Source: a virus. From it: a DNA stretch of 64,000 nt. The DNA lies in IMG/VR virus record IMGVR_UViG_3300020202_000061, positions 250,950 to 314,949 of that record; one strand, 5' to 3'. The notes beneath the pieces are model-generated. The model was not told the origin of the DNA, did no database searches, and saw nothing but the letters and a program-made list of their open reading frames with translations. A program made the translations under genes and the position numbers. This document shows positions 11,293-62,424 of the stretch, piece by piece. Each line of letters begins with the position of its first letter. The first letter of the stretch is position 1.

Positions 11293-11370
11293 ACGCTATA
11301 TACTAAGAGGCACCGAGGGTTTCAGATGCCTCTATGGGGATTCCAAATCAACAACGGGGTCGAACAACGA

Positions 11371-13305: not shown

Positions 13306-13316
13306 GGGCTATCATA

Positions 13317-14606
13317 GTGACCACGGTCATTGACAGACGTAAGACCGACCGCCAGAAGAACCTCTCCAATAGGCAGAGGTTCATCAAAAGAGCCAAGGAA
13401 GCGATCAAGAAGTCGATCCGTGGAGCCATCCTCAATAAGGATCGCTCGATCAAAGACTCATCCGGCGGTAATGTTCGAATCCCCAACAAAGGGACGACAG
13501 AGCCGAATTTCCGCAATGGAGACGGTGGTCGTAAGATCATCGTTCGTCCGGGTAATCCAGGCACTGTGCCGGGTGACAAGATTCCACGTCCCAGAAAGGA
13601 TCAGACTTCGGGCCGTGGTAACAGTGATCCATCCAAAGACCCCGCTGAGTTGATGGATGAGTTCGAGTTCACGCTGACCCGTGAGGAATTTCTGGACTTC
13701 TTCTTTGAGGACCTGGAATTGCCCAACTTGGTCAAGACCGCCCTCAAAGAGGTGGTCGAGTACAAATGGTCCCGTTCGGGATTTGCCTCGGTCGGTATGC
13801 CGTCGAATCTCGACATTACCCGAACCTTCATCAATTCGATGGGTCGCCATTTCGCTCTGGCCGGAGCCTACCAGAAAAAGATCGACGAACTTCGCGCTAA
13901 TGGTGGATCGGAAGAGGATATCGCGCTCTGGGAGAAGAGGAAGCGGACCATCCCGTTCATGGATGACGTGGACCTGCGCTATCGCCTGTTTGTGAAGCAG
14001 CCCAAGCCGATCACCAAAGCGGTAATGTTCTGTCTGATGGACGTATCTGGCAGTATGGGCGAGTACGAGAAGGACTTGGCCAAGCGTTTCTTCATGCTCC
14101 TCTACATGTTTCTGGAGCGCAAATACGAGTCGGTCACCGTGGTGTTCATCCGTCATACCACCGAAGCCAAAGAGGTGGACGAGCAGGAGTTCTTCTACTC
14201 GAAAGAATCAGGTGGAACCGTGGTCAGCACGGCTCTGGAAATGACTGCTGATCTGATTCAGCGGCGCTTCAACAGTTCAGACTACAACATCTACGTGAGC
14301 CAGTGTTCGGACGGCGACAATGCCTACGATGACAACTCCGTGTGCACCCAGATCATCCGTGAGGATATTCTGCCTTATGTCCAGTATTTTGCGTATGTCC
14401 AGGTCGGACATCAGCGCGATGAGATGGCCAACATGTGGGGTGTGTTTGCGGGTCGTCTTGGGAACACCACGAGCACGAATTCCCTCTACGAGGTTTATAA
14501 GGAGATCGAGAAGAATACCTCCCATTTCAAGGTGAAGAACCTGAATGGTCCTGCCGACATCTACCCGGTGTTTCGCGAACTCTTTGAGAAGGACATCAAG
14601 GTATGA
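13317..14606 (+). CDS. yeaH: YeaH/YhbH family protein (DUF444, UPF0229)
   Basis: VIDRRKTDRQKNLSNRQRF…EFLDFFFEDLELPNL…VMFCLMDVSGSM…FFYSKESGGTVVS…DIYPVFRELF colinear with E. coli YeaH. Confidence 0.85.
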   Translation: MTTVIDRRKTDRQKNLSNRQRFIKRAKEAIKKSIRGAILNKDRSIKDSSGGNVRIPNKGTTEPNFRNGDGGRKIIVRPGNPGTVPGDKIPRPRKDQTSGRGNSDPSKDPAELMDEFEFTLTREEFLDFFFEDLELPNLVKTALKEVVEYKWSRSGFASVGMPSNLDITRTFINSMGRHFALAGAYQKKIDELRANGGSEEDIALWEKRKRTIPFMDDVDLRYRLFVKQPKPITKAVMFCLMDVSGSMGEYEKDLAKRFFMLLYMFLERKYESVTVVFIRHTTEAKEVDEQEFFYSKESGGTVVSTALEMTADLIQRRFNSSDYNIYVSQCSDGDNAYDDNSVCTQIIREDILPYVQYFAYVQVGHQRDEMANMWGVFAGRLGNTTSTNSLYEVYKEIEKNTSHFKVKNLNGPADIYPVFRELFEKDIKV

Positions 14607-16093
14607 GCCTGCTCTGGAATGATAATGAATGGACTTTCCCGCTCATCGACAAGGTCTACAAGGAGATCGAGCAGATCGGCGTGGGTGAGATGGGTCTGGA
14701 CATCTTCCCGAATCAGATCGAGGTCATCAGCAGTGATCAGATGCTGGACGCTTATGCAAGCCATGCCATGCCAGTCATGTATAAGCACTGGTCCTTTGGC
14801 AAGTCGTATTCGGTCAACAAGAAACTCTATGAGAACGGTCAGCAGGGTCTGGCCTACGAGGTCGTAATCAACTCGAATCCCTGCATTGCCTATCTCATGG
14901 AGGACAACACCATGACCATGCAGGCTTTGGTCATGGCCCATGCCAGCATCGGTCACAACAACTTCTTCAAGACTAACTACCTGTTCCAGCAGTGGACCGA
15001 TCCGGATGGGATCATCGACTACCTGATCTTCGCCAAGAATTATGTGGCGAAGTGTGAGGAGCGATACGGTGCCGAACGAGTCGAGGAAGTTCTCGATTCC
15101 TGTCACGCTCTCATGGACCAGGGTATGGACCGCTTTAAGCGAGCCCGCAAACGTTCCCGTCAGGAGGAGAAGCTCCGTGCGGCCGAACGTGAAGCCTATC
15201 ACCAAAGTCGTGTGAGTGAGCTTTGGCCGGACACCTGGAAGTCCGAGACCCCGGCCCAGAAGGAAGAACGCAAGAAGCGGATTCTTCCGGAGCCCGAGGA
15301 CAACATCCTCTACTTCATCGAGAAGAACTCGCCGATCCTGGAGCCGTGGGAACGAGAGATCGTTCGTATCGTCCGTAAGGTATCGCAGTATTTCTGGCCT
15401 CAGATGCAGACCCAGGTCGGTAATGAGGGCTGGGCCACCCATACCCATTACTTCATTATGAATCGTCTCTACGAGAAGGGTCTGATCTCGGACGGTTCTC
15501 TGTTGGAGTTCTTCAAGTCCCACACGGGCGTTATCGCGCAGTATCGCATGCAGCGTCTGAACCCGTACTGCCTGGGATTCAACATTTTCCGCGACATCAA
15601 GCGTATGTGCGAGAAACCCACCGATGAGGATCGTGAATGGTTCCCCGATCTGGTCGGGATGAACTGGCTGGAAGCCGCGAAGGACGCGCGTGAGAACTAC
15701 AAGGATGAGAGCCTGATCCTCCAGTACCTCAGCCCCAAGGTGATCCGCGATCTTAAGCTTTTCTCGATCCTGGATGATTACGGCACGGACTCGATGAACT
15801 ATATCGTCCAGAACATCCACGACCGGGAAGGCTACAAGGAAGTTCGTCGATCCCTCTCTCGCAACTACGACATCAACATGAGAATTCCACAGATTCAGGT
15901 GTCGGATGTCAATGTGGATGGGGATCGCAAACTGATCCTTCGCCATACCCGTCACAACTATGTGCCGCTGGATCAGGCCGATCTCAAGGAAACTCTCCTC
16001 CATGTGAGGCGTCTCTGGGGGTTTGCGGTGCGTCTGGACTTCTACAATCCCGGCGCGGTCAGTCCCACGGATTGGGTAGCGGTGGGTGAATAA
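14603..16093 (+). CDS. spoVR: SpoVR/YcgB family protein
   Basis: 496 aa; conserved SpoVR stretches (MYKHWSFGKSY, GHNNFFK, GWATHTHY). Confidence 0.85.
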   Translation: MSLLWNDNEWTFPLIDKVYKEIEQIGVGEMGLDIFPNQIEVISSDQMLDAYASHAMPVMYKHWSFGKSYSVNKKLYENGQQGLAYEVVINSNPCIAYLMEDNTMTMQALVMAHASIGHNNFFKTNYLFQQWTDPDGIIDYLIFAKNYVAKCEERYGAERVEEVLDSCHALMDQGMDRFKRARKRSRQEEKLRAAEREAYHQSRVSELWPDTWKSETPAQKEERKKRILPEPEDNILYFIEKNSPILEPWEREIVRIVRKVSQYFWPQMQTQVGNEGWATHTHYFIMNRLYEKGLISDGSLLEFFKSHTGVIAQYRMQRLNPYCLGFNIFRDIKRMCEKPTDEDREWFPDLVGMNWLEAAKDARENYKDESLILQYLSPKVIRDLKLFSILDDYGTDSMNYIVQNIHDREGYKEVRRSLSRNYDINMRIPQIQVSDVNVDGDRKLILRHTRHNYVPLDQADLKETLLHVRRLWGFAVRLDFYNPGAVSPTDWVAVGE

Positions 16094-46508: not shown

Positions 46509-46927
46509 AGCTTCCACCCATTCAGGGTGGCCAAATAGGTCAGGAGGCGCTGGCGGTCAGAATTCCCCGCTATGGGGATATCCTGGTGGAATCGGTCGGG
46601 CCGTGCGTATCCGAGCATGACCATGAGGTCCTTGAACCCGGTCTGAACCTGGATGTTGCCGTGGACACCCATTTGGTGGGCCATGCGGACCAACCCCATG
46701 AAGGTGCGGGTGCGCTCGTATTCGGTCTCCCTGGGAAGGCGACGGTGTTCCAGGTCCCAGTAAGCCTGTCGGGCGTCGGGTTTAGCCATGATGAGGCGGA
46801 ATTTCGGACGGATTTGGCGGAAGGTCAACGCGACCGGACCCGGCACAGGAATCTTGCGGGCGATGGTTTGTCGAACACGACCGGGAACTTCCGCATCAGG
46901 GCGGCTATAAATCTCAAACAGATTCAT
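46505..46927 (-). CDS. hypothetical protein downstream of the amidoligase
   Basis: ORF 140 aa; TGATG-coupled to the amidoligase gene. Confidence 0.5.
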   Translation of the reverse strand: MNLFEIYSRPDAEVPGRVRQTIARKIPVPGPVALTFRQIRPKFRLIMAKPDARQAYWDLEHRRLPRETEYERTRTFMGLVRMAHQMGVHGNIQVQTGFKDLMVMLGYARPDRFHQDIPIAGNSDRQRLLTYLATLNGWKL

Positions 46928-48372
46928 TCTGCTGCTTTCGGATAGAATTGCTTGGCACGGTAGAGTTGCTCGAAATGCTTGCGGCCGGTCTCGACCGCGA
47001 CCTTATAGAGCTTGGTCAGAAACTCCTTGCGATAGACCTCGGGAGTGGTGGCCACGTACATCATCACGATCAGTTGTAGACAAGTGTCCTCGATCTCGGA
47101 CCAACGATCCTCGTAGTCGGAGTTGCCTGCGGCACGAAACTCGATGTAGCCCTGATCTAGTTTGGTCAGGTTGACCCGGAAGTATTTCTGTTTGGGTACG
47201 GCACGACGAAACAATTCGATCACCTTTTGGATGTCCTGCTGGTTCAGTCTGATCCGACCACCAAGATTCGAGAGCACGCGCATAAGCTCGGCTTTGTTCC
47301 GGGCGAAGTTCTGCACCATTTGGTAATAGGTCTGTGCGGCCATTACCCCGCTGTTCACGGCGTGACCCTCACCCTTATTGAATTGGAGACGGTCGTAATT
47401 CTGTGCGATGTAGGCGTCTCCCATCAGGAACAACAGCTTCACGTAATCCACATCAGCACCAGCCTTGCCAATGTTGATGTGCAAACCCGTAGCCTGATTC
47501 GTCTCGGCTTGAGTTCCAGGAATGTGCCGACCGATGTTCTGGATGAACAGGAGCACCTTGTGCAAGGCTTTCAAACCTTCTGCCGCAGGCTTAATCGGTG
47601 AGACCACCTCGACACCGACCATGCCTTGTTCCCATAGCTCGTTGATGTCCAGTGAGTTGTCCATGGTAACGGCCCAGGTCGAGTAGTTGTGGGTCTTCGT
47701 CTTGGTATCGCCCCGCATCAACCGCACCACCACGGGTTCACCCAGATACTCCTCAAGCGCCTCGGCGATTACCTGATAGAGAACCTCGATCTGAACATGA
47801 CTGTCATTGGGATCGAAATTCTGATCCTCCTCACCGATCATGAACTGCCTGTAGCTCTCATCATCGAGGTTCTTATAGGCGACCATCCCCACACGATCAC
47901 CTTTCGCGATAAGACGTTTGATCTTGCGCAGGGCAGTTTCATCCTCGATGTCGAAACCCTCATCCGGCCACACACGAAGAGCCGTGATCAAGCCGTAGGG
48001 TTTGAACTTCTTGACCAACGCCCCAAACATATCCCGGAACTTGGTCTGTCCGGCCTCGGGGAAATTGGCCTGAAATAGACGGTCCATGCGCTCGCGGACG
48101 ATCTCTTGATTGTCCTGTCCCAGACCTTCCGCACCGAGCGGGGTGAAACTCTTCAACAGATCGTACCACCGGAGGTCTCCCAGCTTCTTCACGTACCAGA
48201 AACGATCCTTGCTGCGACTGGAATTCTTCTTGTAGAGACCGGCCATTCTCTTGGCCGCGTTCAACACGTAGAACTCCGTCTCGAATCCCATCGTCATGTT
48301 GGGATCGGCCAGAGCCTGATTGATTAGGGCTTGCCGGACCTTGGCCCCCTCGAAGAGAATCGGGTTTGTCAT
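46924..48372 (-). CDS. putative amidoligase (glutamine synthetase/GCS2-like carboxylate-amine ligase family)
   Basis: N-terminal MTMGFETEFYVL (G-x-E-x-E start typical of the family); 482 aa; assignment by pattern only. Confidence 0.55.
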   Translation of the reverse strand: MTNPILFEGAKVRQALINQALADPNMTMGFETEFYVLNAAKRMAGLYKKNSSRSKDRFWYVKKLGDLRWYDLLKSFTPLGAEGLGQDNQEIVRERMDRLFQANFPEAGQTKFRDMFGALVKKFKPYGLITALRVWPDEGFDIEDETALRKIKRLIAKGDRVGMVAYKNLDDESYRQFMIGEEDQNFDPNDSHVQIEVLYQVIAEALEEYLGEPVVVRLMRGDTKTKTHNYSTWAVTMDNSLDINELWEQGMVGVEVVSPIKPAAEGLKALHKVLLFIQNIGRHIPGTQAETNQATGLHINIGKAGADVDYVKLLFLMGDAYIAQNYDRLQFNKGEGHAVNSGVMAAQTYYQMVQNFARNKAELMRVLSNLGGRIRLNQQDIQKVIELFRRAVPKQKYFRVNLTKLDQGYIEFRAAGNSDYEDRWSEIEDTCLQLIVMMYVATTPEVYRKEFLTKLYKVAVETGRKHFEQLYRAKQFYPKAAE

Positions 48373-48405: not shown

Positions 48406-48837
48406 ATGACTAGAGAACCCGTATTCTCGTTGACCCGAAAGGATTTTCGCCTGGAATGGTTTAGTGGCACCGGACCGGGCGGTCAAAACCGCAACAAGGT
48501 TCAGGCGTGTTGCCGAATCACCCATATCGCCACGGGTATCCAGGCGACCTGCCAGGAACACCGTGAACGCTCCAAAAACCAAAAAGCCGCGTTCAAGGTC
48601 CTGGTTGAGCGTCTGATGCCGTGGATCGAGGAACAGGTCAACGGGAAACGTCCCGATTATAACCCCCAGACCGATACGATTCGCACCTATCACGTCGCGG
48701 ATAATCGTGTGAAGGATCACGATTCGGGTTATCGTCAGACCTGGGATGAGGTCGAACGCGATCTATCCAAGATGATTGAGGCTCGCCTTCAACAAAAAGT
48801 CCGCACCGAACTTGAAAAACAACAGGACGAATCCTAA
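48406..48837 (+). CDS. arfB: ArfB-like peptidyl-tRNA hydrolase (class I release-factor GGQ domain protein)
   Basis: GGQ motif in SGTGPGGQNRNKVQ; about 140 aa with basic C-terminal tail, as in ArfB/YaeJ. Confidence 0.8.
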   Translation: MTREPVFSLTRKDFRLEWFSGTGPGGQNRNKVQACCRITHIATGIQATCQEHRERSKNQKAAFKVLVERLMPWIEEQVNGKRPDYNPQTDTIRTYHVADNRVKDHDSGYRQTWDEVERDLSKMIEARLQQKVRTELEKQQDES

Positions 48838-48867: not shown

Positions 48868-49200
48868 ATGAAGCTGACTCGTCGAGGCACCCGAGCGGGG
48901 ACCAAGCCGGAAACTGAAAGGCCGGAAGAGCCTACGGTTTCGGTTCACAAGCATGCGTCGATGACACTGTCGATTCCGGGCGAGCAGATCGTCAACCTCC
49001 TCAAGGAGGTCCTTCTCGAACACCTTCCCGAAGGTGTGATGCCACCTGTCGCTCTTAGCGATGTGAACCTGGAATTCCATATCGAGGATTCCGAGGGGAA
49101 TCAGACCTGCGGCACCCTGGATACGTTGGAGTTCTCCTACCACATCTACGAGAACACCAAGGGTGAGGTCGTGTTCAAGTTTCCGTTGGTGAAGAAATGA
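48868..49200 (+). CDS. hypothetical protein
   Basis: ATG 48868 with RBS gaggtgggg. Confidence 0.45.
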   Translation: MKLTRRGTRAGTKPETERPEEPTVSVHKHASMTLSIPGEQIVNLLKEVLLEHLPEGVMPPVALSDVNLEFHIEDSEGNQTCGTLDTLEFSYHIYENTKGEVVFKFPLVKK

Positions 49201-49415
49201 CCTTCACCGTCACACTGATTGATTTATGGTGGGTTCTGCCCACGTTGGTGACCCTGATCTCTTGGGGTGTAGCCATTTGGTTCTATAACGACGAAATGAA
49301 GGGAGCCCGTTTTACTCTCCCCTGGTTCGTCAATCCAATCTTTTGGTTCGGTGCTCTTATTGCCTCGGTCCTGAGCCTGGGTTCGTGGATCATTTATCTC
49401 CTGGTGCATTCATGA
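49197..49415 (+). CDS. small membrane protein, paralog 1 of 3
   Basis: WVLPTLVTLISWGVAIWF; 72 aa. Confidence 0.45.
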   Translation: MTFTVTLIDLWWVLPTLVTLISWGVAIWFYNDEMKGARFTLPWFVNPIFWFGALIASVLSLGSWIIYLLVHS

Positions 49416-49618
49416 CGAATACTCCCGCGATCCTCGATTATGTTTGGGTGATTCCCACCCTGATCACCATCAGCATGTGGGCCTGGGTTATTTTGACTCC
49501 GGCCGAAGAAACGAAGAGCGATGTGATGTGGCTTCCCGATCCTATGCCGTTGGTTCGTGGTGCAGTCGCAGCAATCGTCAGTCTCGCGGTATGGCTGATC
49601 TACTTCATCATTTTCTGA
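49412..49618 (+). CDS. small membrane protein, paralog 2 of 3
   Basis: VWVIPTLITISMWAWVIL; ATGA-coupled. Confidence 0.45.
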   Translation: MTNTPAILDYVWVIPTLITISMWAWVILTPAEETKSDVMWLPDPMPLVRGAVAAIVSLAVWLIYFIIF

Positions 49619-49794
49619 TGTCATCCATTGTATTCCCGATTGTTCTGACCGTGCTCCTCTGGCTTTGGGCCTGGACACAACCCCGATTGGACATGCAGTC
49701 ACTCGTCTCCATGGTGATAGCAATCAACGGGACCATTGGTATCTGGGTGATCTATTTCGTCACCCTCGGCATTTACCATCTGAGCATTACATGA
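49618..49794 (+). CDS. small membrane protein, paralog 3 of 3
   Basis: ATG 49618; FPIVLTVLLWLWAW. Confidence 0.35.
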   Translation: MSSIVFPIVLTVLLWLWAWTQPRLDMQSLVSMVIAINGTIGIWVIYFVTLGIYHLSIT

Positions 49795-51583: not shown

Positions 51584-51873
51584 GCGAGGACAAGCACGAA
51601 CACGGCAACGTTCACTTTGCCTGGGCTCTAGGTGGGACGGGCGAGCGCGTGCACTACCGACTGGAGAGTGAAGGACGCAAGGGGCCTATCCGTGAACTCA
51701 CTCTCCAGCAGGCCGAATCCTTTATGTTGAATCCGGACCGGGATTACACCCCGAAGGATGGTGTGCTGAACCTAGAGAAATGGGTCGCCGCGAAGAAACT
51801 CCTGACCGAGACCATGTTCAAGCTGGAAAAGACCAAGCCCGGCACCATTGTCAGACCCGCCGCAAATCCCTAG
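51580..51873 (+). CDS. hypothetical protein
   Basis: GTG 51580 overlapping upstream TGA. Confidence 0.45.
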   Translation: MSEDKHEHGNVHFAWALGGTGERVHYRLESEGRKGPIRELTLQQAESFMLNPDRDYTPKDGVLNLEKWVAAKKLLTETMFKLEKTKPGTIVRPAANP

Positions 51874-51882
51874 ATTATCCCT

Positions 51883-52830
51883 ATGAATTTGGATAGGGCC
51901 GTTATCGCACTCCAGAAGGCCACGGGGTGGCCGGACATTTTCAGGACCAGATATGACGAGGTCTGCTTGCGTTTCAATATGCATCAGGCCATGTCGATCA
52001 CGGGCCTGGAAATCCGCAATTTTCCCGAGCGTATGAATTACTACTTGAATTTCCCCGGTTTGGAGGAGATTCCGTTGAGTTTCCTCGTCATGGAAGTGCC
52101 GACCAATAACAGCACGGTTCTGCATCGCACCCTGGCCGGACAATTCCACTCCTACCAGGGATTGCCATCGAAGGTTGTGATGAGCCCAATGGTGGACCCC
52201 ACTGGCGTGTCCAAATATCTCACCATGCAGGAATGGCACTGGAACGGGGTGCTCCACAACACCGAGGGGCCAGCCAGAATCACCTATCAGGGTTATCATT
52301 GTGACGAAACCCACCCGACCACACTAGACCCGATCAAGCCCTCGCAGGTGGTTCAGTTTTGGGATTCTGCGATTCTTGGTTGGTTCATCAACGGCACGAG
52401 AAAGGTGTGGCCGTTCCCGGCCACGGTTCAGCTAGAGGCGGGATGGTCCCTGCGCGAACGCGAGTCACCCTACTCGATGATCCGCCAAGAAGGGGTGAGA
52501 TCGTACTGGTGCCAGTCCGGCATGTTTCTGTTCCAGCGCGATCCCGACGACAAGGACACCAACACGGAATTCCTGGTCTCCAAGTTGCTCATCCATCAGC
52601 ACCAGGAGGAGATCGAGCAGGGCCGAATGATTCGCACTGGTCCCTGCATGTTCGAGTGGAACTTCAACGGGACCAACTACAGCGGAATCGAGAAGGAAGA
52701 AGCCTGCGTGAGGATGATGCGCTGGTTCGAGCAGGACATGCTCTCGCGTATCGATCCGTGGGGTCCGTTCTTCCAATCCCAACAGGACAAAATGATCCTG
52801 CTATCGAAGATCAAGGAGTTCGGATTTTGA
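51883..52830 (+). CDS. hypothetical protein, member 1 of a five-gene tandem paralog array
   Basis: 315 aa; WHWNGVLHNTEGPARITY repeat. Confidence 0.55.
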   Translation: MNLDRAVIALQKATGWPDIFRTRYDEVCLRFNMHQAMSITGLEIRNFPERMNYYLNFPGLEEIPLSFLVMEVPTNNSTVLHRTLAGQFHSYQGLPSKVVMSPMVDPTGVSKYLTMQEWHWNGVLHNTEGPARITYQGYHCDETHPTTLDPIKPSQVVQFWDSAILGWFINGTRKVWPFPATVQLEAGWSLRERESPYSMIRQEGVRSYWCQSGMFLFQRDPDDKDTNTEFLVSKLLIHQHQEEIEQGRMIRTGPCMFEWNFNGTNYSGIEKEEACVRMMRWFEQDMLSRIDPWGPFFQSQQDKMILLSKIKEFGF

Positions 52831-53621
52831 TCAAGAACTGGACGGACTTCGCGTCCTGCTATCCTCTAATGAAGGCTCTGGTCGATCTCATGCCGGGTGG
52901 GGAGAAGATCGCGGAAATGAGCTACGAGCCCATCCAGAACGATACCTCGTTCCGAGTAGATCGGCACTCCTATCTGGATGCGGAAAAGCTTCCAGAGGAA
53001 CTCCGCAAATACGCACCCAAGCAGGTGTTCTGGTGGAGGGACGGCCTTCGTCATCGAGCCCATGCACGACACGAGACGTTCCACGGCTCTGTGCTGCTCG
53101 CCTACGGCAACATCGCGATTGAACCGGCTCCACATCGGTCCTGGAGCACAGGCTCTTCCTGGGCCGCCAATTCGCCCATATTCAGCTACCCTCGTAGTCA
53201 GCCTTCATGGAAGGATGTTCCGGACGATTACCTGCATCGCGAAGATGGGTTTCCGGCACTAATCGGACTATTTGGGTATCATGGCAAGTTCAACCCCCTG
53301 ACCCAACTCCCCTATGGGGATGTGCGCAAGCGCACGATCACCTGCACCCATCTGACCGGTTCCTGGTGCCGCCACGGTCGTCCCTATCGCGCATTTGGAC
53401 CCTGTGGTATGATCATCCACTCCTACCGGGAATTCTGGGAGGACGGTAAGCGATCCAATTGCAGGCATTCCAGCGTGGACACGTATTGGCGTCCGACTCC
53501 GGAGAAGGACCTGGACGAGTTCAAAGCGTTCCGGGCTCGAATCCGAAAGACCGATCCCTACCAGAACATTTATTTCCTGGATTCGGTGAATCGCACGGAG
53601 TACGTGACCAGATTTGCTTGA
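52827..53621 (+). CDS. hypothetical protein, member 2 of the array
   Basis: TTG 52827 overlapping upstream TGA; FWWRDGLRHRAH repeat variant; start uncertain. Confidence 0.45.
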   Translation: MIKNWTDFASCYPLMKALVDLMPGGEKIAEMSYEPIQNDTSFRVDRHSYLDAEKLPEELRKYAPKQVFWWRDGLRHRAHARHETFHGSVLLAYGNIAIEPAPHRSWSTGSSWAANSPIFSYPRSQPSWKDVPDDYLHREDGFPALIGLFGYHGKFNPLTQLPYGDVRKRTITCTHLTGSWCRHGRPYRAFGPCGMIIHSYREFWEDGKRSNCRHSSVDTYWRPTPEKDLDEFKAFRARIRKTDPYQNIYFLDSVNRTEYVTRFA

Positions 53622-53646
53622 CAAAACTCAGTGAAATCCTTAAGAT
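53618..53646 (+). promoter_or_regulatory. sigma70-like promoter
   Basis: TTGACA 53618-53623; 17-nt spacer; TAAGAT. Confidence 0.55.
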
Positions 53647-53652
53647 ATTAGG

Positions 53653-54552
53653 ATGTTCACGAGCATTCTCGACTATATCCGTTCGGACCTCTACCACACG
53701 CTGGCGTACCGGCACCCGCGCAGTCAGGTCCGGCATGATCCGCTCGCTCTGTTCCAGAGTATCGATGGTGTGAGCCTCGGCAAGCACTTCTGGGGTGATC
53801 GCGAGATCGAGACGAACCTTGCCAAGACCAAGCCGGGTTCGTTCACCACGTTCGATCATTTCTGGTTCATTCCGGATCGCGCCAACTACCAGAACTACAT
53901 CCTCGGCCTCGCCCAGAACGAGATCGAAATCGCCGCTGATGATATCCCCGATCTGATCGGGTTCGAAAGCGAATTTGGTTGTCGTCAGCATCAGATCGAC
54001 GGGCTCATCAATACCCAACTGGATGGTTCTCCCTCGGTGGAAATGCACAACCTCTACCTCTACTGGGGCTATTGGGATGGGGAGATCGATCACAAAGAGA
54101 AGCGTCGGAAGAAATTCGTCTGCCACCGTGAGAATGGCCCGGCTCGGGTCTATATGAGCAAGCTCAAGAAGTGGCACAAGGATGGCAAACGGTATCGGGT
54201 CGGGAGTCAATCCACGATCACCTGCGACCGGTTCCATGCCTTGTGGATGCACAAGGGTGAACTGATCGAGGGGCAACACCAGGAACGGCCCCAATCCGTG
54301 TGTGTGACCGACTTTCGAGAATGGGAAAGCGTGAAGTCGAAGAAGAGAGGGCTTGAGGTTCAACAGACCGCCAAGATCGATTACATCTGGCGGATGAACC
54401 AACGGACCTATCACACGAAGGTTCTCGAACCGATCTACAAAGAACTATCCCGCCGGGGATTGGATTTCAACCTGCTCGCCACGGGTTCGGTCTACGGATC
54501 ATCTGTCGCTCGCATGGCGTTCTATTCGGAGTTGTCCAAGCATGTCGGGTAG
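53653..54552 (+). CDS. hypothetical protein, member 3 of the array
   Basis: 299 aa; YWGYWDGEIDH…HRENGPARVY repeat. Confidence 0.55.
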   Translation: MFTSILDYIRSDLYHTLAYRHPRSQVRHDPLALFQSIDGVSLGKHFWGDREIETNLAKTKPGSFTTFDHFWFIPDRANYQNYILGLAQNEIEIAADDIPDLIGFESEFGCRQHQIDGLINTQLDGSPSVEMHNLYLYWGYWDGEIDHKEKRRKKFVCHRENGPARVYMSKLKKWHKDGKRYRVGSQSTITCDRFHALWMHKGELIEGQHQERPQSVCVTDFREWESVKSKKRGLEVQQTAKIDYIWRMNQRTYHTKVLEPIYKELSRRGLDFNLLATGSVYGSSVARMAFYSELSKHVG

Positions 54553-55411
54553 TATCGTAGAGTATCTGGCCCAGGCCGACATCTACTACTTGTTGTTCCA
54601 CGAGGCGGCCTCGCGTGGTCAATCCGTGCCTTTGGGCAAGACCTTTCCGATCTACTCGGTGAAGGTCAGTAAGGGTAAGGTGGCGGATTTCGACTACACC
54701 GATTTCATGGGAATCGAACGGGCAGACTTCAATCCAACTCTGGCCTCGTTGGTTCCGGAGCATGATCTACCCGACCTCATCCTGGTGCAGAGCCGTCCGG
54801 AGTACCACTTCAACAAGGACGGACTCCTGCACGGTCCTCATGGTGGTGGACAGAGCAATCCCTCGCTCAAGATTCGCAGCATGATCCTGTTGTGGGGCTC
54901 GATTTCCTCCGCAATCACCGGAACAATGGAACGGATCAACAAGGCCAAACCCAGAGGAACCGAAACCACACCAAACCGCTACATTCAGGTACGCCGAGTT
55001 AATGCTCCGGCTATCGTTCGTATGGATCACGTCCGATTCTGGCACAATTGTGCTGAGGTCCAGTGGATCAACTGCGGCAAACTCATGTGCCATTGGGTCC
55101 ACAAGGAACGACTCCTCCGAGACAACGGTGGTCCCCACACGACTCTACTGGAGGAGATCAGGATTCTCCCTCAGAACGAAGGGGAGGGATTGGTCCTCAA
55201 CGATCACACCGTTACCATTGACGTTGTCGATCATACCTGGAACACCATGGGTGGCAAAAACATCGCTCAAAAAACAGTGCAGCGGGTTCTCGACGCCAAA
55301 AACATCCGCTATGAAGAGTTCTCAAAGGACCAATTCTTCAAAAGCCAACAGGAGTTCATGATCTTCCTCCAAGGCATGCAGGACGAACTCGCTCGGGATC
55401 GAATCGTATAA
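54542..55411 (+). CDS. hypothetical protein, member 4 of the array
   Basis: 289 aa; FNKDGLLHGPHGG repeat variant. Confidence 0.55.
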   Translation: MSGSIVEYLAQADIYYLLFHEAASRGQSVPLGKTFPIYSVKVSKGKVADFDYTDFMGIERADFNPTLASLVPEHDLPDLILVQSRPEYHFNKDGLLHGPHGGGQSNPSLKIRSMILLWGSISSAITGTMERINKAKPRGTETTPNRYIQVRRVNAPAIVRMDHVRFWHNCAEVQWINCGKLMCHWVHKERLLRDNGGPHTTLLEEIRILPQNEGEGLVLNDHTVTIDVVDHTWNTMGGKNIAQKTVQRVLDAKNIRYEEFSKDQFFKSQQEFMIFLQGMQDELARDRIV

Positions 55412-56001
55412 TGACGAATTCACATCCCGCTCATGACCTGGATTGGTACGTCTGCAATCTCAAAGGTCTCCAGACCGAGGTCTATGCCGGAATCAAATGC
55501 ACGTCCAACGCGAACCTCGATATAAAAACGAACAACCCCGAAAGGGGGAGTGTGGCAGAGATTACCTACCGCGATCTGATCCTACACTTCTACCGTGAGA
55601 ACGAACACATCAAGGCGATCCTCCGTGGTGGCCGACATCGCTTCGAGCATGGCCAACTCCATGATGGGGTCCGACCGGCTGTAGAAATCGAATACATCGA
55701 ACTGGTCTGGCAGAACGAGTTGGGCGAAAAGTTCCGCAAATTCGGTCCGGTCAGTGTAAGCATTTGGGATTATCGCGCCAATTGGTCCAACGGCACTTTT
55801 CTGATGGACCAATCCTCCATGGTGAAGGAACAGTTCCTCAACTATGATAATCGTGAAATTTTTCACGAAGCAGTAGATGCCTGGAAGAAACAGAGTAAGA
55901 TCAAGGCGGATCATTTCTCGTTCGACTACATCACGGACGGTATCCACAAACTGTCTATAAGCGCGGAACTCTTCAGGTCGCAAGATACCATTAGCAAATA
56001 A
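55411..56001 (+). CDS. hypothetical protein, member 5 of the array
   Basis: 196 aa; RGGRHRFEHGQLHDGVRPAVEIEY repeat variant. Confidence 0.5.
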   Translation: MTNSHPAHDLDWYVCNLKGLQTEVYAGIKCTSNANLDIKTNNPERGSVAEITYRDLILHFYRENEHIKAILRGGRHRFEHGQLHDGVRPAVEIEYIELVWQNELGEKFRKFGPVSVSIWDYRANWSNGTFLMDQSSMVKEQFLNYDNREIFHEAVDAWKKQSKIKADHFSFDYITDGIHKLSISAELFRSQDTISK

Positions 56002-56026: not shown

Positions 56027-56653
56027 ATGGTATTGAGCGCAACATCCGCAGCCACCCTTACTCAAAACGTCATCAACGTCCAGGAGAACCGTCTCCTCGT
56101 GGACGAGATCGGTGGTGCCGAGTCTGCCATCCGCAACGCTGCGCGGCGTCAGCATTATAAGGTTGCTTACAACGCGACGAAAATCGGCAATCCGCCACTG
56201 GATGATCTCGATCAGGGTCTGACGGTGGTTCAGGAGGAGTTCTACGACGCCTTCAAGAATGCCGGATACATTGTGCGGCGCGACGAAGATTCTGGATATT
56301 GGCTCCTACGGTGGGCCGTGTCCGGGGCTGAGGAACTGGTGCGGCTCTATTCGGTGCGTACGATTGTGTCGCCCGGCACCAACGAGTCTCAGACGCTCAC
56401 CGCAATCGACGCGTTCTTCACCACCCAGATTGCCCCGAAAGCGACCGTACGCTCACTCTTGGTCAATCCGATGGGATCGGGTGGAAACATCGACGAGACC
56501 CAGTTCGGGGCGACCGCGAGCACCTTCTACGAGTACGTGGCTATTGTCCAGCAAGGTACCGATCTGGACCATGCTGCGGCCCTGAAGTCTTACTTGGTGA
56601 ATTCGGCGATTGGGTTTGCCACGAACAATGTGGCCGTCTACAAGATCGCTTAA
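56027..56653 (+). CDS. hypothetical protein
   Basis: ORF 208 aa. Confidence 0.55.
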   Translation: MVLSATSAATLTQNVINVQENRLLVDEIGGAESAIRNAARRQHYKVAYNATKIGNPPLDDLDQGLTVVQEEFYDAFKNAGYIVRRDEDSGYWLLRWAVSGAEELVRLYSVRTIVSPGTNESQTLTAIDAFFTTQIAPKATVRSLLVNPMGSGGNIDETQFGATASTFYEYVAIVQQGTDLDHAAALKSYLVNSAIGFATNNVAVYKIA

Positions 56654-57066
56654 CGCTTCAGATTGAATTTTTCGCGAACGTCGTTAGCGAGCCTTGCCAG
56701 TTTTTCCTTGATCGTCTTGGGGTCGCCTTCGGACTCAACGATGATCTTGGCCTTGGCCAAGTATTCTACCGTGGCCTGAGCACCTAACTGGCATATCTTG
56801 GCGATGTCGTAGAAGTTCACCGCGATCAATGAGGCTTCCCGACCCAAGTGCACGGGGGTTTCCGGATAAGCGCTGAGGAAATCTCGATTCACACAGTTCT
56901 TGGAGAAATCCTCCGGGACCTCAACCATTTGATACTTGTACTCGGTGACTAAGACCTTCTTGGTCCCGGCGCAACCCGTGGCCAGAAATAGAACAGTGAT
57001 GATCAACAACATCCAAAGCAAAATCTTGAATGCTCTCTTCGAGTTGTAAGGAGAAACTTTGATCAT
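56650..57066 (-). CDS. putative outer-membrane spanin (lipoprotein)
   Basis: signal peptide plus lipobox LATGC; follows the i-spanin-like gene with ATGA overlap. Confidence 0.5.
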   Translation of the reverse strand: MIKVSPYNSKRAFKILLWMLLIITVLFLATGCAGTKKVLVTEYKYQMVEVPEDFSKNCVNRDFLSAYPETPVHLGREASLIAVNFYDIAKICQLGAQATVEYLAKAKIIVESEGDPKTIKEKLARLANDVREKFNLKR

Positions 57067-57533
57067 GGCTGAACCTCCGGCTTCAATTCGGGCTGTAGGG
57101 TCGGTACCGGGGCTGGCGTCACCGGAATGTTGAGTTCGAGTTTGCGGATGTCCTCCAGAGTCTTCTGCAAGACTTCGGGAATCTCACCATCCTTCAGTTG
57201 ACCCTCTTTGATCTGCTCAGTCAGATTACGGACGTTGCGGAGGAGCTTCTCCTGCTTCTGCATGAAATCCTGGATCGCCTGCTCACGCGCCTGCATGACC
57301 TCTTCCATCGTCTCCAGATGCTCCTGCTGCTGTTTCAGATGGTTTTCGACCTGCTCCTGAAATACCTTGTTCACAGCTTCGGTTTCGATAGACTTCTTCC
57401 ACCACATATATCCGAGGAACAAACCTAGGGCGACGACGCCAACCAGAAGGAGCTTTCCACCAATTCCCTTCAGGAATCCGAAGAACGGAAACATCGCAAG
57501 TAATTTGGCACCCAAAAAGGCAAACGGGAGCAT
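57063..57533 (-). CDS. putative inner-membrane spanin
   Basis: N-terminal TM LLLVGVVALGLFLGYMWW, long coiled coil, Pro-rich C-terminus; coupled to the downstream lipoprotein. Confidence 0.55.
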   Translation of the reverse strand: MLPFAFLGAKLLAMFPFFGFLKGIGGKLLLVGVVALGLFLGYMWWKKSIETEAVNKVFQEQVENHLKQQQEHLETMEEVMQAREQAIQDFMQKQEKLLRNVRNLTEQIKEGQLKDGEIPEVLQKTLEDIRKLELNIPVTPAPVPTLQPELKPEVQP

Positions 57534-57598
57534 GGTTGAAAATCCTCAATCGTATACTCATTTATTTAGGGGAACCCGAGGATTTCATAAATATTAAC

Positions 57599-58405
57599 AT
57601 GAGAGTCATCGTCTGCGGTGGTAGGGATTTTGAGGACGTAGAATTCGTCATCCACTACCTAAACCACGTCCACAACTGGAATCCGATCACCTGTGTGATT
57701 GCCGGAGCCGCTCGGGGTGTGGACACGTTTGCGGAGCTTTGGGCGGACGAGATGGGTATTCCCAAGGAGGTATATCCGGCTGACTGGGACAAACACGGGA
57801 AGTCTGCGGGACCCATCCGTAATCAGGAAATGCTCGACAAGTCCAATCCGGATATGATCATGGCCTTCCCTGGTGGTCGTGGAACCGCCCACATGTTCAA
57901 GATTGCCGAGGCCCATGGAGGTGTCGATCTATGGCAGTCCAAGCAGATTCTCTTCCGTAAGCGCGATCCCAAATACGGGTTCATGTCGAATTTTGCCGAG
58001 GGGTTTGAATTCGTCGATCAGGATGGTCTGATTTGGTCCACCAGCGAGCACCACTATCAGGCTCAAAAAGCCACAAACGAGGAGGATCGCAGCCGGGTCC
58101 AGATGGCCCGTACCGCATTCGATTCGAAGCAGATTGGTGGTTCTATTACCCTGCGTCCGGACTGGGACGAGGTCAAGATAGACTGCATGCGTCAAACCCT
58201 GGCTCTGAAGTTCGCTGAAGGTTCGAAGGCGGCCGATCGCCTCATGGACACCCAGGCGGCCTATCTCGTAGAGGATACGCCCTGGGGCGATCAATTCTGG
58301 GGGAAAACCTATGGTGTCGGAGAGAGTCATCTGGGAAAACTCTTGATGGAACGTCGTGAATCCCTTATTCTGGGGACTCCTGTGAGGATTTGGTATCCCG
58401 AGTGA
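57599..58405 (+). CDS. SLOG (DUF2493) – NADAR (YbiA-like, DUF1768) fusion protein
   Basis: N-terminal VIVCGGRDFEDV…AGAARGVDTFAELWADE…GPIRNQEM (DUF2493/SLOG); C-terminal FMSNFAEGFEF…WSTSEHHYQAQKA…DWDEVKIDCMRQTLALKF (NADAR). Confidence 0.75.
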   Translation: MRVIVCGGRDFEDVEFVIHYLNHVHNWNPITCVIAGAARGVDTFAELWADEMGIPKEVYPADWDKHGKSAGPIRNQEMLDKSNPDMIMAFPGGRGTAHMFKIAEAHGGVDLWQSKQILFRKRDPKYGFMSNFAEGFEFVDQDGLIWSTSEHHYQAQKATNEEDRSRVQMARTAFDSKQIGGSITLRPDWDEVKIDCMRQTLALKFAEGSKAADRLMDTQAAYLVEDTPWGDQFWGKTYGVGESHLGKLLMERRESLILGTPVRIWYPE

Positions 58406-61139: not shown

Positions 61140-61825
61140 CACTTGACTTCTTTGGTGTTGTCGAACACACCCAGATGGATGTTGAAATCCGCTCCCGTAT
61201 TGAACAGGATCAGCGTGTGATGGGGATTGCGCCAAACCGTCTGGGGCAGATGACGACTACAATGGAGTTCGCACTGGTAGGTGGGTTCGTCCTCCATTTC
61301 CTCTCGGGTGTCGGCGAAGCTGACCTCATAGGAGGTGACCGACCAGAAGTAGTTGCGGCAATCCACCAACGGGAACGTGCGGTAGCCCTCCTCGTAGCCG
61401 AACAGCTTGTGGATGTCCTGTTCCATCTTGAAGTAGTCACTAAGATGGGCGTTGGCTCGATCATGAGCACGCTGTTCATCCTGAGCCTTCAAGATAGCTT
61501 GATGATCCGGATTGATCGCCCATAGCGGAGGATCATCATTCGGAACCGCCTGGATGACCTCGGCCTTCTCCACCATGGAATGCCACGACAGGAGGTCCGT
61601 GACCTGTCCAGATCGACCCTTCAACGAGTGGTTCTCACAGATGAAATCCACCGGGTGACCCAGCACGGTCATCCACTGAAACTCCACATAGGAGTTACCC
61701 TGGTTGTTCGCGTTGAACGCGGCCAACACGATCAGATTCTCCATGCGCCGAACCCCTGTGTTCAGGGTACGATGCAGACGAAGAACATCACCCTTTCGGG
61801 GATCAAGACGTGGGTCACGCGTCAC
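61139..61825 (-). CDS. hypothetical protein
   Basis: ORF 228 aa, GTG start. Confidence 0.5.
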   Translation of the reverse strand: MTRDPRLDPRKGDVLRLHRTLNTGVRRMENLIVLAAFNANNQGNSYVEFQWMTVLGHPVDFICENHSLKGRSGQVTDLLSWHSMVEKAEVIQAVPNDDPPLWAINPDHQAILKAQDEQRAHDRANAHLSDYFKMEQDIHKLFGYEEGYRTFPLVDCRNYFWSVTSYEVSFADTREEMEDEPTYQCELHCSRHLPQTVWRNPHHTLILFNTGADFNIHLGVFDNTKEVK

Positions 61826-62424
61826 TGAATTACCTTTTTCAGGTCGATGGTGATGGAACGCTCACCCATGTTCCACTTCCCGGCCGTAGCCAGGGTAGCG
61901 GTATCGGCGAGAACACGACGAAGGACGAAGGACTGCTCCTGCGCGGCCTGTTCCAGAGTCTGGTAGCGTTTCAGAGCCATGCGGGTATCGCGGTTCTTCT
62001 TCACACCAACACGAACATCGAAGTTCTTCGCCAGAGCCTCGCGAATGTGGTTCAGCTTGGTCTCGTAGTCGTGCGGACCGATGTTGAGGCCGAAGTAGAA
62101 CTCTTTGAATCCACGATCACGTTCGTGGTTCTTCTTTGCCTGCTCTTTCTTGCGCTTCTCCTCCTCATACTTGAACTTGCCGTAGTCGAGGAGCTTGATC
62201 ACGGGCGGCTTTGCGTCCTTGTCCAGCATGATCAGATCGAGACCCGAGTTGACGCGAAGCCAGTGCGCTTCGGACTGGGTCAGGATTCGACTTTTTTGAT
62301 CATCCGGAATTCCCTCTCGCGAATCGATCAATCGGACCTGTTCGGGAAGAATTCGGGTGTCCTGGATAAGACGTTCATCCTTCTGACGCTGCGGACGGGC
62401 AGAGTTCAAATCTTGTGGTCGCAA
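61822..62424 (-). CDS. infC: translation initiation factor IF-3 homolog
   Basis: colinear with bacterial IF3: ARPQRQKDERLIQD…VRLIDSREG (N-domain) and PPVIKLLDYGKFKYEEEKRKKEQAKK…FGLNIGPHDYETKLNHIREALAKNFDVRV (C-domain). Confidence 0.8.
   Translation of the reverse strand: MRPQDLNSARPQRQKDERLIQDTRILPEQVRLIDSREGIPDDQKSRILTQSEAHWLRVNSGLDLIMLDKDAKPPVIKLLDYGKFKYEEEKRKKEQAKKNHERDRGFKEFYFGLNIGPHDYETKLNHIREALAKNFDVRVGVKKNRDTRMALKRYQTLEQAAQEQSFVLRRVLADTATLATAGKWNMGERSITIDLKKVIQ

What the first reader, a model, noticed from the sequence alone, without database searches (positions are those of the whole stretch)
51883..56001. Five tandem paralogous genes built from W-x-x-G-x-L-H-R-x-x-G-P-A type repeats
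Consecutive ORFs (51883, 52827, 53653, 54542, 55411) share repeated units such as WHWNGVLHNTEGPARITY, HRENGPARVY and DGLLHGPHGG, resembling MORN-like LHR-DGPA repeats seen in many phage proteins of unknown role. Tandem amplification of repeat proteins (about 4 kb) suggests diversifying function, perhaps host-range or an anti-defence role.
Basis: seen in the sequence. Interest (0 to 1): 0.6.

Follow-up and report, generated by a model that had tools for sequence, protein, structure and literature searches.

The report
Conserved megaphage array of repeat-protein paralogs
Five neighbouring genes of an uncultivated ~400-kb phage encode old, strongly diverged copies of one unannotated beta-sheet repeat protein; related phages keep them in the same order next to a sixth conserved gene, so they probably work as a set rather than as a fast-evolving arms-race cluster, and their function is still unknown.

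Summary
Five tightly packed + strand genes (A 51883-52830, B 52827-53621, C 53653-54552, D 54542-55411, E 55411-56001) are homologous. Direct BLAST shows this only for C-D. Profiles built from unrelated metagenomic relatives link all five: hhalign 97-99.7% for each, against 0.1-0.4% for the control.

Each protein has N-terminal helices, about five degenerate 23-residue W-x3-G-x-L-H-R-x2-G-P-A units, and C-terminal helices. The AlphaFold model of C (pLDDT 82) shows the units as long antiparallel strands. The units are homologous to a widespread, uncharacterised tandem repeat (WYxNGxLHRxDGPA) found in phage, giant-virus and bacterial proteins.

Pfam, PHROGs, NCBIfam, PADLOC and PDB have no match, and MORN membership is not met.

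The genes fall into three old subfamilies (A, B, CD). In all 14 related loci with enough upstream sequence these lie in the same order, directly upstream of a better-conserved 208-aa gene F (56027-56653). Orthologue dN/dS is 0.10-0.26, like the neighbours.

Most likely this is a co-expressed, non-enzymatic binding or scaffold set acting with F. That mechanism is inferred, not shown.

The parts
51883..52830 (+). Gene A, 315 aa, A-type subfamily, the most divergent member. It has one near-canonical repeat and the family's C-terminal helix motif FFQSQQDKMILLSKIKEF.
   Evidence: ORF. Orthologues are 74% identical in L001. dN/dS is 0.14. A-only profile against external A-type proteins: 99.5%, E 4e-23. 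A-type profile against the external family profile: 97.6%, E 4.8e-12. The structure model is poor (pLDDT 56).
52234..52287 (+). Best-preserved repeat unit in A: WHWNGVLHNTEGPARITY (residues 118-135).
52827..53621 (+). Gene B, 264 aa, B-type subfamily. TTG start overlaps the stop codon of A by 4 nt. Repeat units include WWRDGLRHR, LHREDGFPALI (nt 53229-53261) and SWCRHGRPYRAFGPCGMII.
   Evidence: The exact product is on record. Against the external B-type profile: 99.7%, E 3.5e-27, full length. dN/dS is 0.10.
53653..54552 (+). Gene C, 299 aa, CD-type. HRENGPARVY lies at nt 54124-54153. The beta-meander core is residues ~110-254 (nt 53980-54414).
   Evidence: Against the external CD-type profile: 99.7%, E 1.7e-26. 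AlphaFold2 model has pLDDT 82.3 and pTM 0.83. dN/dS is 0.26.
54542..55411 (+). Gene D, 289 aa, second CD-type copy; overlaps C by 11 nt. DGLLHGPHGG lies at nt 54818-54847.
   Evidence: C-D blastp E 3e-8. Full-length collinear alignment with 43 invariant columns. Against the external CD-type profile: 99.7%, E 7.7e-26. dN/dS is 0.11.
55411..56001 (+). Gene E, 196 aa, an N-terminally short B-type derivative. Its ATG overlaps the stop of D (TAATG). The unit FEHGQLHDGVRPAVEIEY lies at nt 55642-55695.
   Evidence: Against the external B-type profile: 96.8%, E 2.5e-10 over E residues 55-183. It groups with B in the NJ tree. dN/dS is 0.21.
56027..56653 (+). Gene F, 208 aa, acidic (pI 4.9), not a family member. 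It is the conserved downstream partner of the array.
   Evidence: It lies directly downstream of the array in every related locus. It is 41-50% identical across loci where the paralogues share about 20%. No Pfam, PHROG, PDB or GenBank phage match.
53618..53646 (+). Sigma-70-like site TTGACA-17-TAAGAT, just upstream of gene C. A weaker one (TTGTCA-17-TAGATT, 51848-51876) lies upstream of gene A.
   Evidence: Consensus scan only; the number found in the region equals the shuffle expectation. Listed as a possibility, not as evidence.

Best explanation
SHOWN. The block is a conserved gene module of an uncultivated clade of huge phages (contigs of 348-409 kb). Five co-oriented, overlapping or near-abutting genes encode paralogues of one unannotated protein family: one A-type, one B-type, two CD-type (C and D) and one truncated B-type (E). 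Each protein has a short N-terminal helical segment, about five degenerate 23-residue units of the type W-x3-G-x-L-H-R-x2-G-P-A, and two C-terminal helices ending in a conserved [FY]F-x4-[DE]E-x2-[FY] motif. In the model each unit gives one long beta strand followed by a tight W/G turn and an HR..GP loop, so the units stack into a curved antiparallel beta meander. The units are homologous to a widespread uncharacterised tandem repeat (WYxNGxLHRxDGPA). There is no catalytic signature. The order A-type, B-type, CD-type, then the unrelated acidic protein F is kept across phages whose F proteins are only 41-50% identical.

INFERRED. Each subfamily is retained, in fixed order, with overlapping start and stop codons and under purifying selection. 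The copies are therefore non-interchangeable subunits made together. They most likely assemble with each other and/or with F into a hetero-oligomeric binding or scaffold complex that acts through protein-protein or ligand contacts on its beta-sheet and HR-loop surfaces. The target and the stage of infection are unknown.
For: Genes are real and constrained: there are syntenic orthologues and dN/dS is 0.10-0.26.

Homology of all five.

Repeat nature.

Fold: model of C with pLDDT 82.3 and pTM 0.83, with strands 129-254 flanked by helices.

No enzyme or known-domain match.

Fixed order and F adjacency in 14 of 14 loci with enough upstream sequence: window, L001, L009, L012, L014, L016/17, L018, L021, L022, L025, L026, L029, L031, L032.

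Tight junctions: A/B -4 nt, B/C +31, C/D -11, D/E -1, E/F +25. Related loci show similar overlaps.

Three old clades appear in the NJ tree.
Against: No direct evidence of physical interaction; no multimer prediction could be run. Conserved order and coupling also fit co-regulated but independent proteins.

Copy number varies between lineages (3 to 5 or more members, plus lineage-specific extra members X1-X4). The CD-type gene carries an in-frame stop in two lineages. A strict stoichiometric complex would tolerate this less well.

The model of A is unreliable. The NJ tree has no support values.
Confidence: 0.42

Rival explanations
1. Independent binders. Each paralogue is a stand-alone inhibitor or decoy for a different host protein (anti-defence or host takeover), and the array is a toolbox rather than a complex. 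This is.
For: Repeat scaffolds are typical binder frameworks (established knowledge). Copy number differs among lineages and extra divergent members occur. An in-frame stop in the CD-type gene of two lineages suggests single members can be lost. Neighbouring genes are non-structural and of host-manipulation type: RF-1 domain, IF3, NADAR, amidoligase.
Against: Orthologue dN/dS is not elevated. The same three subfamilies are kept in the same order with F in 14 of 14 loci, unlike typical accessory anti-defence islands. No PADLOC or other known-family match, which is weak negative evidence.
Confidence: 0.3
2. Virion or tail-associated structural proteins (host-range related). The paralogues and F would be minor structural components, like the paralogous structural gene sets of other jumbo phages.
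For: Paralogous structural gene sets are common in jumbo phages (established knowledge). One F homologue (P0187, L009) carries a ~95-aa Gly/Thr/Asn/Ile-rich insertion of the kind seen in fibre-like proteins. In L016 a DUF4376 protein lies about 2.4 kb from F, on the opposite strand.
Against: No recognisable structural gene was found in the parts of the window that were examined; the neighbours are translation, signalling and lysis genes. No PHROG structural match. No similarity to any GenBank phage protein, including proteome-characterised jumbo phages.
Confidence: 0.15
3. Not a real family: the similarity among the five is compositional or due to chance motifs.
For: Most direct pairwise comparisons are not significant. 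The first leave-one-out HMM test was weak for A (E 3.1) and E (E 0.89).
Against: Independent external profiles recover all five, and the control F stays at 0.1-0.4%. The alignment is collinear along the full length.
Confidence: 0.01

Closest known systems
Tandem WYxNGxLHRxDGPA 23-residue repeat proteins. They are unnamed. Pfam captures them only partly, through positions ~55-113 of DUF6745 (PF20530). Examples are hypothetical proteins of Agrobacterium phage Atu_ph07 and Celeribacter phage P12053L, and probably giant-virus proteins such as Mimivirus R871 (a weak Foldseek match only).
   Same: Same unit signature and 23-residue period. A profile of the five window proteins hits such proteins down to E 1e-39 through its repeat core (positions ~135-213). 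Foldseek gives local matches to giant-virus and Atu_ph07 proteins (E 3e-5 to 4e-4). tblastn with a canonical repeat protein finds Atu_ph07 and P12053L.
   Different: The canonical proteins are long, regular arrays of 4-20 or more near-identical units, often fused to other domains. The window proteins have only about five strongly degenerate units, embedded between family-specific N-terminal and C-terminal helical parts. They occur as a fixed multi-gene set. None of the five reaches DUF6745. No function is known for either group.
MORN (PF02493) and MORN_2 / YwqK-type (PF07661) repeats
   Same: Glycine- and aromatic-rich units of about 22-23 residues that stack into antiparallel beta sheets and act as binding modules (established knowledge). 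Some giant-virus proteins matched by Foldseek are named 'MORN repeat-containing' in UniProt. A canonical-repeat protein gives a sub-threshold MORN_2 hit (E 0.035).
Repeat-built beta sheets such as the CPAP TCP10/G-box domain and OspA, and beta-barrel walls (BamA, TamA)
   Different: Scores are at the level of generic beta-sheet geometry. Sequence identity is 2-7%. No membrane features. No homology is implied.
Paralogous gene arrays of jumbo phages (general phenomenon)
   Same: Several diverged copies of one gene lie side by side in a very large phage genome (established knowledge).
   Different: Here the subfamilies are old, are each kept in fixed order across lineages, and are tied to an unrelated conserved partner gene (F). 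The family itself is absent from GenBank phage genomes at tblastn sensitivity.

Membership tests
MORN / MORN_2 repeat (Pfam PF02493, PF07661) | Sequence match to the Pfam repeat model at or above its gathering score | tested here: not met
   No hit at E<=10 for any of the five. Among the 41 family members there is one MORN_2 hit, at E 0.037.
MORN / MORN_2 repeat (Pfam PF02493, PF07661) | Structural similarity to solved MORN-repeat proteins | tested here: not met
WYxNGxLHRxDGPA 23-residue repeat class (unnamed) | Signature W-x3-G-x-[LF]-H-R-x2-G-P-A present in several copies per protein | tested here: met
   Present in degenerate form. Near-canonical copies are in A (WHWNGVLHNTEGPA), B (LHREDGFPA, WWRDGLRHR) and C (HRENGPA). 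Weaker ones are in D (RRVNAPA, LLRDNGGPH) and E (LHDGVRPA, FRKFGPV).
WYxNGxLHRxDGPA 23-residue repeat class (unnamed) | Statistically significant profile match to canonical repeat arrays | tested here: met
   Exhaustive hmmsearch with the five-family profile: 217 proteins at E<=1e-10, mostly multi-stretch matches to profile positions ~135-213. The matched sequences are canonical arrays.
WYxNGxLHRxDGPA 23-residue repeat class (unnamed) | Period of 23 residues | tested here: met
   In C, W175 to W198 is 23 residues and W198 to W223 is 25. The modelled long strands start at residues 165, 189 and 215. The family profile matches itself off the diagonal (95%).
Pfam DUF6745 (PF20530) | Match to the Pfam model at or above 27 bits | tested here: not met
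   None of the five, and none of the 41 family members, match. Canonical repeat proteins match only positions ~55-113 of the 206-position model.
A/B/CD-type family with partner F (defined here) | Collinear architecture: N-terminal helix, ~5 units, then a C-terminal [FY]F-x4-[DE]E-x2-[FY] helix | tested here: met
   Alignments A2, A4 and A5. hhalign to external profiles gives 96.8-99.7%. E lacks the N-terminal part.
A/B/CD-type family with partner F (defined here) | Gene order A-type, B-type, CD-type, then F, all on one strand | tested here: met
   Found in the window and 13 further loci.
Diversifying (arms-race) multigene family | Elevated dN/dS or hypervariability relative to neighbouring genes | tested here: not met
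   Window against L001 orthologues: dN/dS is A 0.14, B 0.10, C 0.26, D 0.11, E 0.21, against 0.07-0.33 for the neighbours. This is one pairwise comparison; site-level tests were not possible.
Known anti-phage defence system proteins (PADLOC models) | Match to a PADLOC model | tested here: not met
   No hit at E<=0.1. PADLOC covers defence systems, not anti-defence proteins, so this is weak evidence.

The most novel reading that the evidence does not exclude
The A-type, B-type and CD-type proteins together with F form a previously undescribed hetero-oligomeric beta-sheet assembly. It would be specific to one clade of ~350-400-kb phages: a new intracellular or virion structure built from degenerate HRxDGPA units. 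It would also give the first functional handle on a repeat class present in thousands of uncharacterised phage, giant-virus and bacterial proteins.
Probability: 0.3. Interest if true: 0.6.

Novelty: new variant of a known kind. Interest (0 to 1): 0.42.

Why it matters
Huge phages carry hundreds of genes with no annotation. This result turns five of them, plus a sixth partner gene, into one defined and testable module. It gives a family definition with three subfamilies, a confident fold model, a conserved gene order and a co-conserved partner.

It also links the module to the WYxNGxLHRxDGPA repeat. That repeat is widespread (at least 2452 profile hits) but is missing as such from Pfam, PHROGs, NCBIfam and the PDB. 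If the set proves to be a complex, it would give that repeat class a first function.

It is also a caution: a tandem paralogue array is not in itself evidence of an arms race.

Tried and rejected
1. A single search with A+B+D+E concatenated, meant to collect all orthologues at once, returned nothing although the proteins are in the database. One of three searches was lost.

2. The word-index search with the 39-sequence family alignment returned only 7 close relatives. The exhaustive representative search was what opened the family.

3. Leave-one-family-out HMMs built from the five families alone were weak for A and E. They were replaced by external-only profiles.

4. The AlphaFold model of A was too poor to use (pLDDT 56).

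6. tblastn of A, C, F and three external family members against 50,697 GenBank phage records found no match. blastn of the region also found none.

7. Literature searches for the motif strings, for DUF6745 and for MORN repeats in phages found nothing useful.

8. At 15-25% identity, synonymous sites are saturated already between orthologues. Orthologue dN/dS was computed instead.

9. A shared N-terminal 'MRLLEFF' leader seen on downstream genes in related loci was looked for in the window and not found.
Full report
**What is there**

- A, 51883-52830, 315 aa
- B, 52827-53621, 264 aa
- C, 53653-54552, 299 aa
- D, 54542-55411, 289 aa
- E, 55411-56001, 196 aa

B starts at a TTG that overlaps the stop of A and follows an AAGGAG. 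Exactly this 264-aa product is on record in the public protein collection. The junctions are tight: A/B -4 nt, B/C +31, C/D -11, D/E -1, and E to the next gene +25. The quoted peptide strings are all present.

The window belongs to a 401,308-bp metagenomic contig. It encodes a T4-type family B DNA polymerase whose nearest cultured relatives are jumbo phages at about 33% identity: Phosso, RsoM2USA, SCTP-2 and 121Q. This is therefore an uncultivated huge phage.

**Are the genes real?**

A 35.6-kb ENA contig (L001) and a 4.1-kb Logan contig (L005) carry the same block. Orthologues are 310, 268, 297, 286 and 190 aa long and 64-77% identical. This is within the 44-93% range of the flanking genes.

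Nei-Gojobori dN/dS for window against L001:

| Gene | dN/dS |
|---|---|
| A | 0.14 |
| B | 0.10 |
| C | 0.26 |
| D | 0.11 |
| E | 0.21 |
| 11 other genes compared | 0.07-0.33 |

. The genes are expressed coding sequences under ordinary purifying selection.

**Are the five homologous?**

Direct comparison supports only part of the claim.
- blastp: C-D gives E 3e-8 (23% identity over 222 aa), B-E gives E 1e-3 over 24 aa, and the rest is noise.
- hhalign on 2-3-sequence orthologue profiles: C-D 86%, B-E 33%, B-C 17%, A-D 5%, controls about 0.1%.
- A leave-one-family-out HMM ranked the held-out family first among 687 six-frame segments in four of five cases, but with weak E-values.

A MAFFT alignment of all five families was nevertheless collinear. 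The shared motifs are hR..[DN]GPA.[IV], then I.C..L...W...G...R...GP, then [YF]R..W...G, and a C-terminal [FY]F.S....M.F.

The decisive step was an exhaustive HMMER search of 1.84 billion representatives with that profile. It gave 2452 hits at E<=1e-3 and 217 at E<=1e-10. The hits are of two kinds:
- About 25 short proteins (180-295 aa) that match along most of the profile.
- Many long proteins that match only profile positions ~135-213, in up to 10 stretches.

The short proteins form two groups, B-like and CD-like. Profiles were built only from these external sequences. They gave:

| Window gene | External profile | hhalign probability | E-value |
|---|---|---|---|
| B | B-type | 99.7% | 3.5e-27 |
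| C | CD-type | 99.7% | 1.7e-26 |
| D | CD-type | 99.7% | 7.7e-26 |
| E | B-type | 96.8% | 2.5e-10 |
| F (control) | either | 0.2-0.4% | - |

The B-type and CD-type profiles match each other at 99.7%.

A needed intermediates. External A-type proteins found next to B-type genes in other contigs match the A profile at 99.5% (E 4e-23). The pooled A-type profile matches the A-free family profile at 97.6% (E 4.8e-12, 164 columns, A residues ~85-312).

As a plain HMM test against the six-frame window, the external family model scores C 3e-27, D 1e-26, B 4e-25, E 4e-13 and A 0.0045. The next segment scores 0.71. There is no sixth member in the window.

A rough NJ tree, without support values, puts C and D in the CD clade, E beside B in the B clade, and A in its own clade.

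**Are they built from repeats?**

The long hits are regular tandem arrays of a 23-residue unit, for example WYRNGKLHREDGPAIVRVDGTEE.

An HMM of 44 such units from four unrelated proteins places its four best domain hits of the whole window in C (HRENGPA), B (WWRDGLRHR and LHREDGFPALI) and A (WHWNGVLH). The individual scores are low, 3-8.5 bits.

The family profile matches itself off the diagonal: positions 67-168 against 129-209, 95%, E 2e-8.

In the alignment each protein shows about five degenerate units, with tryptophan-to-tryptophan spacings of 23-25 residues.

**Fold**

AlphaFold2 on C with a 41-sequence family alignment gave pLDDT 82.3 and pTM 0.83. The model has:
- helices at residues 7-20,
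- a run of long antiparallel strands between residues 129 and 254,
- helices at 255-267 and 284-298.

Mapping the sequence onto the model shows how each unit folds. It contributes one 9-15-residue strand, a short W-x / G-x mini-hairpin, and the HR..GP loop.

Fold searches were not informative:
- Foldseek against the PDB finds nothing below E 0.6.
- Foldseek against predicted viral structures gives weak local matches (E 3e-5 to 4e-4, TM below 0.2). The targets are uncharacterised giant-virus proteins, two of them named 'MORN repeat-containing', and Agrobacterium phage Atu_ph07.

The model of A was unusable (pLDDT 56).

**Annotation status**

Pfam, PHROGs, NCBIfam and PADLOC give no hit for the five. 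Pfam also has none for the 41 family members, apart from one MORN_2 hit at E 0.037. The PDB has no sequence relative of the family or of F.

Canonical repeat proteins reach Pfam only through a short part of DUF6745, and MORN_2 at E 0.035. In cultured phages they are 'hypothetical protein' (Atu_ph07, Celeribacter P12053L).

No GenBank phage genome encodes a detectable member of the family or of F. Literature searches found nothing.

**Context and conservation of the module**

The gene just downstream, F (56027-56653, 208 aa, pI 4.9), is unrelated to the family. It travels with it, however. I looked up contigs for external family members and anchored scans on F in the viral and metagenome collections.

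Every locus with enough upstream sequence shows the same arrangement on one strand: A-type, then B-type, then usually a 0.6-0.8-kb gap or a very divergent member, then CD-type, then F. The loci are the window, L001, L009, L012, L014, L016/L017, L018 (a 375,937-bp IMG/VR genome), L021, L022, L025, L026, L029, L031 and L032.

Further points:
- Some arrays carry extra members: X2 at 95%, X3 at 98.6%, and X4, which is A-type, at 96.8%.
- F is 41-50% identical across loci in which the paralogues share only about 20%.
- An amidoligase gene often lies nearby. In the window it is at 46924-48372 on the minus strand.
- The window lineage differs from the minimal array by having two CD-type genes and the short B-type gene E.

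**Interpretation**

Shown:
- The five genes form a homologous family with three old subfamilies.
- They have a repeat-built beta-meander architecture with no catalytic signature.
- They keep a fixed order and are adjacent to F.
- They evolve under purifying selection and have overlapping reading frames.

Inferred: the subunits are made together and are not interchangeable, which best fits a hetero-oligomeric binding or scaffold assembly that includes or acts on F (confidence about 0.4).

The main rival is a toolbox of independent binders directed at different host factors (about 0.3). It is helped by the copy-number differences and by in-frame stops in the CD-type gene of two lineages. It is hurt by the invariant order and the ordinary dN/dS.

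A structural, host-range role (about 0.15) has little support from the neighbourhood. That neighbourhood encodes an RF-1-domain protein, IF3, a PAS protein, YAcAr-NADAR, a PrkA-DUF444-SpoVR set and a spanin-like pair.

**Verdict**

Of its interpretation, the link to LHR-DGPA repeats holds. The 'MORN-like' label fails the membership tests that could be run. 'Diversifying tandem amplification' is not supported.

This is a new, well-delimited variant of a beta-hairpin repeat protein, organised as a conserved multi-paralogue module in huge phages. Its function is open.

Noticed in passing
window 56027-56653 (+): Gene F: a 208-aa acidic protein with no match in any library. It is 41-50% identical across distant loci and always lies directly downstream of the paralogue array. 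One homologue (P0187 in L009) carries a ~95-aa Gly/Thr/Asn/Ile-rich insertion near its C-terminus.
   Followed up: partly
window 56650-57066 (-) and 57063-57533 (-): A spanin-like pair overlapping by 4 nt. One is a 138-aa protein with a signal peptide and an LATGC lipobox. The other is a 156-aa protein with an N-terminal membrane helix, a coiled coil and a Pro-rich C-terminus. Read from the sequence only; Pfam gave only weak coiled-coil-type hits.
   Followed up: no
window 49197-49794 (+): Three consecutive small ORFs (about 58-72 aa) that each look like a two-helix membrane protein with similar W/I/L-rich segments. This is a second tandem paralogue set just upstream, and it is conserved in L001.
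   Followed up: no
window 11326-16093 (+): A complete PrkA (AAA_PrkA + PrkA C-terminal domain), DUF444 (YeaH-like) and SpoVR gene trio with very strong Pfam scores (E 1e-143 to 1e-170). It is a bacterial stress or sporulation-associated operon carried by a phage.
   Followed up: partly
window 48406-48837 (+) and 61822-62424 (-): Translation-related genes: a 143-aa RF-1-domain protein (of ArfB / peptidyl-tRNA hydrolase size) and an IF3 homologue (IF3_N plus a weak IF3_C match). Such genes are typical of huge phages.
   Followed up: no
window 57536-58405 (+): A fusion of a YAcAr (SLOG-family) domain and a NADAR domain in one 289-aa protein, conserved at 81% in L001.
   Followed up: no
L018 7136-7972, L022 245-1081, L026 2518-3288: The CD-type gene is interrupted by a single in-frame stop. 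In L018 and L022, which have identical sequence around the stop, it is TAG. In L026 it is TAA, at a position where the close relative L009 has a lysine. This could be pseudogenisation, a split gene, a sequencing error or stop-codon recoding. TAG is not obviously avoided as a terminator in L018.
   Followed up: partly
L009 6245-10423, L012 9590-10021, L006 2451-3482: Genes downstream of F in related loci include an amidoligase and a protein with a weak ART-PolyVal match. They share an N-terminus of the type MRLLEFF / MHLLEFF. From my own knowledge this recalls the capsid-targeting leader of T4 internal proteins. No such N-terminus was found in the window.
   Followed up: partly
MF403008.1 (Agrobacterium phage Atu_ph07), L020 5980-6291 and 7 further places: This 490-kb cultured jumbo phage has eight places matching canonical WYxNGxLHRxDGPA repeats. 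The one place examined is annotated as a hypothetical protein. It is a possible experimental entry point to the repeat class.
   Followed up: no
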